DNA of 64,000 nt from Escherichia coli (GCF_003334385.1 NZ_QOWN01000007.1), one strand, 5' to 3'; shown: positions 6,001-9,000, numbered from the stretch's first letter. Made by a program: the numbers.

Positions 6001-9000
6001 GACGCCCGCCATGATATTCAGAAGAATGCGGACGGTTCCTGGACGGCGAATGGTCATATGCCGCTGGAAGATCTAGTGCAATATGTGCCGCTGCCGCTGG
6101 ATGAAAAACGTGAATATCACACCATTGCCGGGCTGTTGATGGAATATTTACAGCGTATTCCAAAACCTGGCGAAGAAGTTCAGGTGGGGGATTATTTGCT
6201 TAAAACGTTGCAGGTGGAAAGCCATCGCGTGCAGAAGGTGCAGATTATTCCGCTGCATAAGGATGGCGAGTTGGAGTACGAGGTGTGATGGTATCGGTCA
6301 TTTTACCCGATAGCCGAAAGGAATAAGATGAGGGAACCGCGCCAGCGGCGATTTACCTCCGGGAGCCCGGGTTGCCAGGGGGGTGGCGATTGAGCCACCC
6401 TGGCACGTTCACCGGCTTGAGCGTTCCATAGTAGTGAGGAACATCAAGTGAACGGAACAGCCTTCGATCTTACATATTCAGAATATAATGGTGCCGCCGC
6501 GAACGCCTGATGCGACGCTTTACGCGTCTTATCAGGCCTACAGGACAGGTCACCTGGTAACCTACATCTTCTCCAGCAACTTCTTCACATCTTTGCCATT
6601 GCGGGAATCTTTATTCCGCTCGGCCCAGTCATTCAGGCGACGTTTCGCTTCGTCCTGTAGATGTTTGCGCAGTAACTGATCCACTTGCAGACTGTAATTG
6701 AGTTGCTGCCAGTTGCCATAAACCCGCAGCGGTACTGGCGTTTCTTTGAGGAAATCAATCAGTTTGCTTTCCCCGTTCCAGCCACCCACGACCCGAATAT
6801 CAAACTGGGTGTCGCAGGTTTGATCTGCCAGATTCAACATGCCTTCCCCTGTCAGCGCCAGCACAGGCGATTGACCTTGCATGTCGTTTAACGTCACGAC
6901 GCCATCCTTCAACGTCAAATCGGTGGTAAAGCGGTCAAGACGCGTTACGTTATCGAAGTTTTCAGCGGCCTTCACATCACCACCATTACGTTCTACCGCT
7001 TGCTGAATCATCTGCTGGAAGTTCATCCCTTCCATGCGCGTGTCGGTCATTTCGACATGTGCCTGTCCTTGCCAGTTGTGGCGGAATGCGTCGGCATCTA
7101 TGTCAGCACCGGAGAAATCACCAGCCAGTGACATTTTTCCGGTCAACGAAATCGGATAGTTAAACGCCTTCAGAATGGTACCAATCTCAACGTTTTCCAG
7201 CCGTGGCTGGAAGTTTATCCGCGGATTTACTGATGTCGCGTCCAGCGTGCCCGGCAGTGAAACCTGTCCACCGTTAAGTTTGCCCTGCAACTGGATAATC
7301 TCCAGCAAACCCGACTTGTTGGTCATTTGCGTGGCAACATCTGTAAAATTCATTCCGCGCCAGCGCACGTTACTGGCCTGCAACAAAATATCAGCCGTAA
7401 AGCCTTGCAGTCCCTGATATGCCGGTTCATCAATACGCGAAGAAATGACCGGGCGCGGCAATGTTGATTGGCTCTGCCCCTGCTGCGCGGCACCGTTTTC
7501 ACCATTCGCTGTTTCATTAAGCGGGATGAGGTTGTCAAGATTCAGTTGCGGGAATTGCAGTCTCAGCTGCCATTCAGGTTTCTCTGTCAGCGTGACCTGT
7601 GCTTGCCCGCTCAGCGTGCTGTCATTGGCGGTCAAGCTGATTTGGTTAAATGAAAGGCGTTTATGTGACTCCTGCCACTGGGCCTGGAAACTCCCCTGCC
7701 CCTGAATACCTTGTTTTGGTAAATCTGCACCCTGCAACTGCCAGTTAATTTGTTCAATAGCCGCCGTTAAATCATGCGGATAATCAGAAGCATCTACCGT
7801 ACCGTTAAGGGATATCGTGAGATCGCGCTGATCGCGATTAACCCGCCCGGAGAACTCAAATGAACCACGATGTTGGGGATCTTGTTCCATTTGCAGGCGA
7901 ATATTGCGGATTGTCACCTGCTCGTCATCTTCATGCTGGAACACCAGCACGCTGTCCGCCACCTTAAGACTGGATATATCAAACGACCATCCGCGATCGT
8001 CTGACAGATCCGGCAAGGTATTGTCGCGCGGTGCAACCGGAGCGTCTTCACTGCGCACCGCTTCCGTCTGCGGCGTCAGTTGAATCACTGCCCCTTTTAG
8101 CATCACCTGCTTAACGCTCAGTTGATGACTCAGTAGTGGTAAAAGCGCCACGTCCAGACGCATGTTGTCGGCGCGAACCAGTGGCTGGCTTGCGCCCTGG
8201 GCGGTGAGAGACATTCGCCCGGAGAGGATACTAAGCTGCGGCCAGACGTGCCAACGCAGTGGCCCGTCGAGCTGCAATTGATAACCGCTACGTGCAGCAA
8301 CTTGCTTGACCATATAGTCGCGGAAATCATTCGGATTCACCAGCAACACTAACGCAGATAACCCGGCCACCAGCACGACCAGGAGTATCATCAGCGTCGT
8401 CAGAAATCGTCTCATGGTATCCTCAATGGGCCTGAATTAGTCTTTATCGATTCGGCTGGCTACCGCGCCCTGCTGATTGCGATATTTCGCATCTTCACGG
8501 CGGTTGTAAGGTCGCGCCGCCGGGCCGGAAAGCGGCTCAAAGCTCAGCGCACCAATTAACATGCCCGGACGCAGCGCCAGCGGCAGCTTACCGGAGTTGT
8601 AGAACTCCAGCACAATGCAACCAGACCAGCCCGGATCGATACGGTGCGCGGTGACGTGCACCATCAGCCCCAGACGCGCCAGTGAGGAACGCCCGTCCAG
8701 CCAGCCCACCAGATCGGCTGGCAGCGTCACCGACTCCAGCGTCACCGCCAGCGCCAGCTCTCCTGGGTGAAGATAGAACGCCTCGCCCTCGTCGAGAACG
8801 ATCTCATCGCTCATCACGCGGTCAAGCGCGGCGCTCACTTCATCTTTGGGACCGCTCAGATCGATAAACGCTGCCGTGTGACCACGGAAGGTACGAAATT
8901 TATTGCCCAGGCGTACATCCACCGTCGCGCCGTTAATACGCTCCACTGGCGGACGTGGGTTGATCGACAAACGGCCTTCATCAAGCCAGGCTTCAATATC

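What the first reader, a model, noticed from the sequence alone, without database searches (positions are those of the whole stretch)
6289..6561. Structured 270-bp yegH-asmA intergenic region beyond the REP unit
Besides the REP at 6505-6541, the region contains a hairpin immediately after the yegH stop (TATCGG...CCGATA, about 6293-6318) and a GC-rich palindromic segment (CCAGGGGGGTGGCGATTGAGCCACCCTGG, about 6373-6401) that I cannot assign to a known element. It could be a terminator plus a further REP-like unit, or a small structured RNA.
Basis: seen in the sequence. Interest (0 to 1): 0.2.

Follow-up and report, generated by a model that had tools for sequence, protein, structure and literature searches.

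The report
Broken relic of a TRIP1/RRS repeat
The structured DNA between E. coli yegH and asmA is the surviving 3' part of a known GC-rich repeat family (TRIP1, also called RRS), sitting next to an ordinary REP; it has lost the family's defining part and looks like a decaying leftover, not a terminator or an RNA gene.

Summary
Window 6305-6479 is the 3' ~60% of a ~265-nt repeat. A profile of 59 family copies hits only here in the 64 kb (nhmmer E=3e-41, profile positions 108-269).

The family is TRIP1 (Rudd 1999), also named RRS "replication risk sequences" (Pham et al. 2023/24). Full-length members also match Rfam TwoAYGGAY (RF01731).

Other Escherichia carry a full-length copy at this same locus. 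Removing exactly 178 bp between two TACCCGAT repeats from that copy reproduces the window. The "post-stop hairpin" is therefore a deletion junction, and it is no more stable than shuffled sequence (z=-1.2).

The GC-rich palindrome (6374-6404) is a genuine family helix with compensatory changes. It is also the homologue of the RRS "G4" region.

The window copy lacks both AYGGAY hairpins and the RRS G4 motif. It has no terminator or promoter signal and is absent from about a quarter of E. coli genomes. It diverges at about the silent-site rate of its neighbours, including at positions invariant in the family.

Verdict: an unlisted, degenerate member of a known repeat family; low interest in itself. 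By-products: the TRIP1/RRS-TwoAYGGAY link, and an IS110-family element that targets the second AYGGAY hairpin loop.

The parts
4639..6288 (+). yegH (TerC-family) coding sequence; stop TGA at 6286-6288. Context only.
   Evidence: ORF list; RefSeq annotation of near-identical loci.
6289..6303 (+). Unique 5' flank retained from the long allele (TGGTATCGGTCATTT).
   Evidence: Identical to the start of the long allele in L002 and L062.
6304..6311 (+). TACCCGAT: junction of a 178-bp deletion between two 8-bp direct repeats of the long allele.
   Evidence: In L062 the two TACCCGAT copies lie exactly 178 bp apart. Removing one repeat plus the interval reproduces the window, with 6 mismatches over 6285-6543.
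6305..6357 (+). Orphaned 3' strands of family helices 1-5, whose 5' partners are deleted. Includes the family motif ACCCGATAGCC. The small local helix 9 (6337-6340 with 6345-6348) is still intact.
   Evidence: nhmmer profile hit 6305-6465 = profile positions 108-269, E=3e-41; consensus structure.
6359..6370 (+). Small CCGG/CCGG hairpin (family helix 10). The private substitution G>T at 6358 lies just beside it.
6374..6404 (+). It is the positional homologue of the RRS 'G4' tract and its complementary arm. The private T>G at 6381 turns a conserved U-A pair into G.A.
   Evidence: Covariation in A4 columns 187-224; RRS G4 motif quoted in PMC10592627; G4Hunter 1.40 here against 1.84 in RRS.
6406..6454 (+). 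Nested hairpin = family helix 14 (CGTTCAC 6406-6412 with GTGAACG 6448-6454), with an inner stem 6423-6427/6438-6442.
   Evidence: 5 of its 7 pairs show compensatory changes; fold z=-2.8.
6455..6479 (+). 3' tail conserved within the subfamily (...ACATATTC). Approximate 3' end of the repeat.
   Evidence: Alignments.
6480..6504 (.). 25-nt spacer of unresolved origin between the repeat and the REP.
   Evidence: Present in the long and short alleles, different in L025/L054. No similarity to the relE/HTH cassette beyond chance.
6505..6541 (.). REP unit (hairpin 6505-6537), shared by the REP-only, short and long alleles.
6562..8415 (-). asmA coding sequence, convergent with yegH. Context only.

Best explanation
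The 273-bp yegH-asmA spacer has three parts: a short unique flank, the 3' ~150-175 nt of a ~265-nt interspersed repeat (6305-6479), and an ordinary REP (6505-6541).

The repeat belongs to the TRIP1/RRS family, in a divergent subfamily that is common in Enterobacter, Leclercia and Lelliottia. The 5' two-thirds of full-length family members correspond to the Rfam TwoAYGGAY motif.

A full-length copy was already at this locus before Escherichia species diverged. In the lineage of this window, a 178-bp deletion between two TACCCGAT direct repeats removed the 5' part, including both AYGGAY hairpins.

What remains is two intact family hairpins plus orphaned half-helices. This is shown: identity, truncation, deletion mechanism, the conserved structure of the parent family, and polymorphism of the locus.

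This is inferred: the relic no longer does what full-length copies do (published RRS copies stall lagging-strand synthesis and create ssDNA gaps). It is evolving neutrally. At most it acts passively, together with the REP, as stable secondary structure at the 3' ends of the convergent yegH and asmA transcripts.
For: Identity. A profile of 59 family copies hits the window once, at 6305-6465, profile positions 108-269, E=3e-41. The window is ~97% identical to the 3' half of the long allele. The long allele is 82-84% identical over 158 nt to the K-12 TRIP1a/c = RRS copies at lysO-aqpZ and yohP-dusC. Those loci are the ones named in PMC10888264 and PMC10592627.

Truncation. Full-length orthologues lie between yegH and asmA in three other Escherichia species representatives. 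A simulated 178-bp deletion reproduces the window.

Family structure. 57 consensus pairs, 25 with compensatory changes. 98.4% of cells are paired against 35-42% when partners are slid. 0 of 500 shuffles reach the observed values. There are 78 G-U against 15 A-C pairs, so the G-rich strand is the one that folds.

TwoAYGGAY link. The Pluralibacter copy scores 44.6 bits (gathering 43), RRS-lysO 30.6 bits and the long yegH-asmA allele 30.0 bits.

Decay and dispensability.
- About 4192 of 5426 complete genomes have the short or long allele, and 1425 of these have the long one.
- 793-911 genomes have a relE/HTH cassette instead, and Nissle has only the REP.
- Window and K-12 differ at 9 of 273 intergenic positions (3.3%). 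Four-fold sites differ by 4.0% in asmA and 2.8% in the yegH 3' end.
- Substitutions fall on positions that are invariant or nearly invariant in the family: 6309 in K-12, and 6358 and 6381 in the window.

No signals. There is no promoter-like site on the + strand and no terminator-like site. Rfam gives only the REP match.
Against: No expression, 3'-end or ssDNA-gap data could be examined here, so 'non-functional' is an inference.

The short allele is the commonest E. coli allele (~51%), which could reflect some benefit as easily as drift.

The two retained hairpins are intact apart from one mismatch, and could still act as an RNA-stabilising or polymerase-pausing structure.

The neutral-rate comparison rests on small counts (9 differences).

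The order of events among the alleles (REP-only, toxin-antitoxin cassette, long, short, inverted) is not fully resolved.
Confidence: 0.85

Rival explanations
1. The hairpins are the transcription terminator or 3'-end stabiliser of yegH (and, on the other strand, of asmA). They would work like REP/BIME structures that block 3' exonucleases.
For: The position is immediately downstream of the yegH stop, between convergent genes. The hairpins are stable and a REP is present. REPs are known mRNA stabilisers (established knowledge).
Against: There is no U-tract after any stem, and the scan found 0 terminator-like sites. The first hairpin is at chance level and is a deletion junction. The whole segment is absent in Nissle-type and O157-type alleles, where yegH and asmA are intact. 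Any such effect would be a passive side-effect and would not explain the sequence's origin.
Confidence: 0.15
2. It is an independent small structured RNA gene, or a 3'UTR-derived sRNA.
For: The parent family has a covarying fold on one strand and overlaps the Rfam candidate RNA TwoAYGGAY.
Against: The copy here lacks the 5' 40% of the fold, so five helices have no partner. There is no promoter-like or terminator-like site and no Rfam hit other than REP. It is dispensable in about a quarter of genomes. Substitutions fall at family-invariant positions.
Confidence: 0.05
3. It is a working RRS-type 'replication risk' element that stalls the replisome and creates post-replication gaps.
For: It is homologous to RRS, and the palindrome is the homologue of the RRS G4/hairpin region. 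The window's private T>G raises G4Hunter from 0.96 to 1.40.
Against: The exact G4 motif is absent, and the authors found no additional site for it in the K-12 genome. Only two prominent RecA/SSB peaks are reported in K-12, at lysO and dusC. More than 100 nt of the element is missing. By K-12 coordinates the G-rich strand here is the leading-strand template, whereas RRS act with that strand on the lagging template (inference from the positions of oriC and dif). It lies ~550 kb from dif, not 650 kb, only 90 kb from RRS-dusC.
Confidence: 0.05
4. It is a degraded remnant of the relE/HTH toxin-antitoxin cassette that occupies the same spacer in O157:H7, UTI89 and others. Alternatively, it encodes a small peptide (21-codon ORF from ATG 6328, preceded by AAGGAA).
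For: The same locus carries the cassette in 793-911 genomes. In E17-type strains the repeat abuts a truncated relE. An SD-like motif plus ATG is present.
Against: tblastn of RelE and HTH against 6251-6600 gives no hit even at E<=10, and blastn finds only chance-level 8-17-nt matches. The ATG is present in only 4 of 59 family copies (CTG or CCG elsewhere), and the stop position varies with indels.
Confidence: 0.02

Closest known systems
TRIP1 repeats (Rudd 1999; Li et al. 2024, PMC10888264) = RRS 'replication risk sequences' (Pham et al. 2023, PMC10287960; 2024, PMC10592627)
   Same: It is the same repeat family by sequence profile and shared covarying helices. It is GC-rich and intergenic, lies next to transporter-type genes, and varies in copy number between strains. 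Partial copies are already known: TRIP1b has a 125-bp internal deletion.
   Different: This locus is not among the five TRIP1 loci (aqpZ-ybjE, putP-ycdN, yohI-yohG, alx-sstT, copA-ybaP) or the two RRS. It belongs to a divergent subfamily (...CAGGGTGGTGGCGATTGAGCCACCCTGGCACGTTCAC...GTGAACGGAAC). It lacks the RRS G4 motif, is 5'-truncated, and has its G-rich strand on the leading-strand template.
TwoAYGGAY RNA motif (Rfam RF01731; Weinberg et al. 2010, PMC2864571)
   Same: Full-length relatives share the architecture: an outer stem, an inner stem and two adjacent hairpins with ATGGAT/AGGGAT loops. One relative passes the Rfam gathering score.
   Different: The window copy has lost exactly this domain. 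What it keeps is the 3' strand of the outer stems plus a 3' extension (helices 10-14) that the Rfam model does not cover.
REP/BIME elements
   Same: The adjacent unit 6505-6541 is a typical REP. In two Escherichia species the repeat sits between two inverted REPs.
   Different: The palindrome and the other hairpins are not REP-like in sequence and belong to a much longer composite fold.

Membership tests
TRIP1/RRS repeat family | Sequence homology to established copies (TRIP1a/c = RRS-lysO/RRS-dusC) | tested here: met
   Family profile against the window: E=3e-41 at 6305-6465. The long allele is 82-84% identical over 158 nt to the lysO-aqpZ and yohP-dusC copies.
TRIP1/RRS repeat family | Full-length unit (222 bp RRS; 264-273 bp TRIP1a/c/d/e) | tested here: not met
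   Only profile positions 108-269 are present. A 178-bp deletion removed the 5' part. TRIP1b is likewise partial.
TRIP1/RRS repeat family | RRS G-quadruplex motif GGGGGTGCAGGGGGCGGCGG on the sense strand | tested here: not met
   The homologous tract is GGGTTGCCAGGGGGGTGGCG. G4Hunter is 1.40 (0.96 in the usual allele) against 1.84 in RRS. Motif taken.
TRIP1/RRS repeat family | G-rich strand is the lagging-strand template; about 650 kb from dif | tested here: not met
   The window + strand equals the K-12 + strand at 2.139 Mb. In the oriC-to-dif counter-clockwise replichore the + strand is the leading-strand template (inference). The distance to dif is ~550 kb.
TRIP1/RRS repeat family | Triggers post-replication ssDNA gaps with RecA/SSB loading | not testable with these tools
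   The papers report only two prominent peaks in K-12, at lysO and dusC.
TwoAYGGAY RNA (RF01731) | Covariance-model score at or above gathering (43 bits) | tested here: not met
   No hit in window 5900-6900 even at E<=10. Relatives: L015 44.6 bits, L010 30.6 bits, L062 30.0 bits.
TwoAYGGAY RNA (RF01731) | Two adjacent hairpins with AYGGAY terminal loops | tested here: not met
   Both hairpins lie in the deleted 178 bp. They are present in the long allele (ACATGGATGT and ACAGGGATGT).
REP/BIME | ~35-nt imperfect palindrome of REP consensus | tested here: met
   This applies to 6505-6541 only: naRNA4-type match and z=-4.9. The rest of the spacer gives no REP match.
Intrinsic terminator | GC-rich stem followed by a U-run | tested here: not met
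   0 sites on either strand in 6000-6900.
Independent sRNA gene | Own promoter and defined 3' end; conserved presence | tested here: inconclusive
   There is no sigma-70-like site on the + strand in the spacer, and the segment is absent from about a quarter of genomes. Expression data were not available.

The most novel reading that the evidence does not exclude
The E. coli RRS/TRIP1 'replication risk' elements are enterobacterial members of the TwoAYGGAY structured-RNA family. On this reading, selection acts on a ~265-nt single-strand fold of the G-rich strand, not on a G-quadruplex as such.

The supposed G4 tract is the 5' arm of a covarying hairpin. That hairpin is retained, without the G4 motif, in the subfamily to which the yegH-asmA copy belongs.

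The family turns over by duplication, inversion between REPs and deletion. It is also the dedicated target of an RNA-guided IS110-family insertion sequence, which inserts in the loop of the second AYGGAY hairpin.

The window's segment would then be a fossil of that turnover.
Probability: 0.45. Interest if true: 0.6.

Novelty: new member of a known kind. Interest (0 to 1): 0.3.

Why it matters
For the window itself it matters little. It explains an unannotated, oddly structured spacer present in most E. coli, K-12 included, as a dead copy of a known repeat.

The by-products are more useful in three ways.
- They join three separate descriptions (TRIP1, RRS, TwoAYGGAY) into one family with a well-supported fold. 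The RRS and TRIP1 papers read here do not mention the Rfam motif.
- They show that family members without the G4 motif keep the same hairpin. This bears on how RRS stall polymerases.
- They identify a natural, site-specific target for an IS110-family (bridge/seek-RNA type) transposase.

Anyone deleting or counting RRS/TRIP1 copies in E. coli should also know that divergent copies exist at yegH-asmA, tauA-mmuM and proX-MFS.

Tried and rejected
1. The segment as the right end of an IS110-family element. This was suggested by strain E17, where a transposase gene lies just upstream. Rejected: the IS is inserted into the repeat. The same IS interrupts RRS copies at the same nucleotide, and uninterrupted copies have a continuous hairpin loop.

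2. A remnant of the relE/HTH cassette. There is no protein or DNA similarity.

3. A small ORF (21 codons from 6328). The start codon and the frame are not conserved in the family.

4. Other identities recalled from memory: hok/sok or other type I toxin loci, group II intron fragment, retron, IS200/IS605 end, RyfA. None is supported. Rfam finds none of them, and the literature search identified the family directly.

5. Intrinsic terminator and sigma-70 promoter scans found nothing in the spacer.

6. A literature search for yegH/asmA intergenic transcripts returned nothing relevant.

7. I did not build a covariance model. The nhmmer profile and direct alignment already settled membership.

8. 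I could not fully order the history of the alleles (REP-only, cassette, long, short, inverted).

Full report
**What is in the window**

yegH (+, stop at 6286-6288) and asmA (-, stop codon at 6562-6564) converge on a 273-bp spacer. RefSeq annotations of near-identical E. coli loci, including MG1655, list no feature there.

- The REP hairpin is at 6505-6537. It is very stable (z=-4.9) and gives a sub-threshold Rfam naRNA4 match.
- The post-stop hairpin is TATCGG 6292-6297 with CCGATA 6307-6312. It is no more stable than shuffled sequence (z=-1.2; 24 of 200 shuffles fold as well).
- The GC-rich palindrome is at 6374-6404 (z=-2.0 as RNA, -2.5 as DNA).

The simple scans found no terminator-like site on either strand. 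The only promoter-like site is on the minus strand inside yegH.

**The locus is polymorphic**

Comparison with 5,426 complete E. coli genomes shows several alternative spacers.
- Nissle 1917 has only 67 bp, essentially the REP.
- O157:H7, UTI89 and about 800-900 other genomes carry a relE/parE-HTH toxin-antitoxin pair instead.
- About 4,192 genomes carry the window-type segment.
- 1,425 of those carry a "long" allele with 178 extra bp at its 5' side.
- A few carry the long allele interrupted by an IS110-family insertion sequence and joined to a truncated relE.

The window is not K-12. It is 99.2% identical over 7 kb, with 9 differences in the spacer. It differs from the best database matches at two positions, 6358 G>T and 6381 T>G.

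**What the segment is**

The long allele detects further, ~80%-identical copies in other intergenic regions of E. coli: lysO-aqpZ, yohP-dusC, tauA-mmuM and proX-MFS.

A pattern scan of one genome per species found 1-6 copies per genome in Escherichia, Enterobacter, Leclercia, Lelliottia, Silvania, Citrobacter gillenii, Pluralibacter and Pseudescherichia.

A literature search identified the lysO-aqpZ and yohP/dusC copies as two published things:
- TRIP1a and TRIP1c (Rudd 1999; Li et al. 2024, PMC10888264);
- the two "replication risk sequences", RRS-lysO and RRS-dusC (Pham et al., PMC10287960 and PMC10592627).

Neither the five TRIP1 loci nor the two RRS include yegH-asmA. Neither paper mentions yegH or asmA.

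A profile built from 59 copies hits the 64-kb window exactly once, at 6305-6465, covering profile positions 108-269, with E=3e-41. The window therefore holds the 3' ~60% of one family member. Subfamily-specific conservation extends to about 6479.

**How it came to be truncated**

Full-length orthologous copies lie between yegH and asmA in three other Escherichia species representatives. One has the window's orientation (L062). Two are inverted and sit between two inverted REPs (L025, L054).

In L062 the octamer TACCCGAT occurs twice, exactly 178 bp apart. Deleting one repeat and the interval reproduces the window, with 6 mismatches over 6285-6543.

This explains the first hairpin. Its left arm is unique flank. 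Its right arm, CCGATA, is part of the family motif ACCCGATAGCC, which normally pairs with GGCCGGG about 60 nt upstream. The hairpin is a deletion junction.

A deletion between the direct GCCTGAT words of the two REPs in an L054-like arrangement would give exactly the Nissle REP-only sequence. This is an inference.

**The parent family has a real, conserved fold**

RNAalifold on 59 distinct copies predicts 57 pairs, 25 of them with compensatory double changes. Counting pairs gave:
- 98.4% of cells are standard pairs, against 35-42% when the 3' partners are slid by 1-3 columns;
- 25 pairs show double changes, against 4-9 in the slid controls;
- none of 500 column shuffles reaches the observed values.

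G-U pairs outnumber A-C by 78 to 15. This points to folding of the G-rich strand, as RNA or as single-stranded DNA. Many of these G-U cells are inherited within subfamilies, so the asymmetry is supportive, not decisive.

Variants include CAGGGTGGTGG/CCACCCTG, GGGGGCGGCGG/CCGCCCCC and TAAGGGGGC/GCCCCCTTA. The third hairpin is helix 14.

The window keeps helices 9-14. Helices 1-5 have lost their 5' strands, and helices 6-8 are gone entirely.

**Link to an Rfam family**

Full-length members match Rfam RF01731, TwoAYGGAY (Weinberg et al. 2010; "probably RNA", not cis-regulatory, function unknown).
- The Pluralibacter gergoviae copy scores 44.6 bits, above the gathering score of 43.
- RRS-lysO scores 30.6 bits (E=0.005).
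- The long yegH-asmA allele scores 30.0 bits.

The two adjacent hairpins with ATGGAT/AGGGAT loops are the two AYGGAY loops. The RRS and TRIP1 papers I read do not mention this.

The window gave no such hit because exactly this domain lies in the deleted 178 bp.

**Is the relic still doing anything?**

Several results argue against RRS-type activity.
- The published G4 motif GGGGGTGCAGGGGGCGGCGG is absent, and the authors found no additional site for it in K-12.
- G4Hunter is 0.96 in the usual allele and 1.40 in this window, against 1.84 for RRS.
- Only two prominent RecA/SSB peaks are reported in K-12.
- By K-12 coordinates the G-rich strand here is the leading-strand template, the opposite of both RRS (inference).

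Several results argue against an RNA gene or a terminator: no promoter or terminator signals, five orphaned half-helices, and absence from about a quarter of genomes.

Several results argue for neutral decay.
- The spacer differs between the window and K-12 at 3.3% of positions. Four-fold degenerate sites differ by 4.0% in asmA and 2.8% in the yegH 3' end (small counts).
- K-12 has A at the family-invariant G of ACCCGATAGCC (6309).
- The window has T at a nearly invariant G (6358), and a G that breaks a conserved U-A pair in helix 12 (6381).

The toxin-antitoxin remnant and small-ORF ideas were tested and failed.

My best reading is a degenerating fragment. At most it has a passive effect, together with the REP, on the 3' ends of the two convergent mRNAs. 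That last step is inferred, not shown.

**Side findings**

*IS110-family insertion sequence.* A 1,386-bp IS110-family element is present in 180 of 5,426 genomes, with up to 4 copies. Its 341-aa transposase scores 359 bits against NCBIfam NF033542.

It is inserted at exactly the same nucleotide in the loop of the second AYGGAY hairpin. This is so in the yegH-asmA copy and in RRS copies at a lysO/yohP junction...TTTTACAGGGAT^[IS]^GTTACCTCGCG....

Its 275-nt 3' non-coding region contains GAGGTAACA, the complement of the target's TGTTACCTC. That is a 9-mer match, with roughly 5% probability by chance.

The common E. coli long allele reads GGGCGCGT-CCATATAT-GTTACC. It therefore carries an 8-nt scar of that IS's right end.

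*The RRS "G4" tract.* It forms the 5' arm of the covarying helix 12. The subfamily that lacks the G4 motif keeps the hairpin.

*A longer Enterobacter unit.* In Enterobacter the repeat is embedded in a longer ~400-bp conserved unit bordered by CCCTCTCCC...GGGAGAGGG-type repeats.

**Verdict**

The object is an unlisted, truncated member of a known repeat family next to a REP. Interest in the window feature itself is low. The family-level links deserve a specialist's look.

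Noticed in passing
L010 2498-2637 (RRS-lysO/TRIP1a); L062 943-1086; L015 4833-4962: Full-length TRIP1/RRS copies match Rfam TwoAYGGAY (RF01731): 30.6, 30.0 and 44.6 bits, with gathering at 43. The two hairpins with ATGGAT/AGGGAT loops are the AYGGAY loops. The RRS and TRIP1 papers read here do not mention this.
   Followed up: partly
L003 100-1485; also L079, L080, L081, L084 (yegH-asmA) and L082, L083 (lysO/yohP RRS): A 1,386-bp IS110-family 'RNA-guided transposase' element is inserted at the identical nucleotide in the loop of the second AYGGAY hairpin, in two different subfamily copies (TTTTACAGGGAT^...^GTTACCTCGCG). It is present in 180 of 5,426 genomes. Its 3' non-coding region holds GAGGTAACA, complementary to the target flank TGTTACCTC.
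   Followed up: partly
L002 about 1243-1266 (long allele, strain VREC0864): The common E. coli long allele reads GGGCGCGT-CCATATAT-GTTACC, where other species have GGGCGCGTTTTACAGGGATGTTACC. The 8 extra nucleotides equal the right end of the IS110-family element, so this is a scar of an earlier insertion and imprecise loss.
   Followed up: partly
Alignment A4 columns 180-224; window 6366-6404: The published RRS G-quadruplex tract is the 5' arm of a hairpin that covaries across the family. The window's subfamily keeps the hairpin but not the G4 motif (G4Hunter 0.96-1.04 against 1.84).
   Followed up: partly
Window 6289-6561 compared with L004, L005, L025, L054, L062: The yegH-asmA spacer has at least five allelic states: REP only (Nissle), relE/parE-HTH cassette (O157, UTI89; 793-911 genomes), long repeat, short repeat (window, K-12), and repeat plus IS plus truncated relE. 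In two other Escherichia species the repeat is inverted between two inverted REPs.
   Followed up: partly
L007 2493-2765 (tauA-mmuM); L008 2492-2764 (proX-MFS transporter): Further E. coli copies of the window's subfamily sit at loci that are not among the five TRIP1 loci listed by Li et al. 2024.
   Followed up: no
L040-L045, L074-L076, L050, L020, L007: In Enterobacter and relatives the repeat is part of a longer ~400-bp conserved unit. It extends ~70 nt upstream and ~60 nt downstream of the core and is bordered by CCCTCTCCC...GGGAGAGGG/GGGGTGAGG-type repeats. This may indicate a composite or mobile unit.
   Followed up: no
Window 6358 and 6381: Two substitutions (G>T, T>G) are not seen in the best-matching complete E. 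coli genomes (best identity 99.6%). Both hit conserved family positions, and the second lengthens a G-run to six.
   Followed up: partly
L052 (Chryseobacterium sp. 18061 contig), L058 (583-bp contig in a Bacillus assembly), L019 (Proteobacteria MAG): Enterobacterial-type TRIP1 copies appear in assemblies labelled as unrelated taxa. These are probably contamination or mislabelling. The Bacillus contig has coverage 0.72.
   Followed up: no
L035 1189-1373 (Citrobacter gillenii): A C4 antisense RNA (77.9 bits) with its a1/b1 targets and an isrK-like match, typical of P1/P7-type prophage immunity regions, lies about 500-600 bp from the repeat copy.
   Followed up: no
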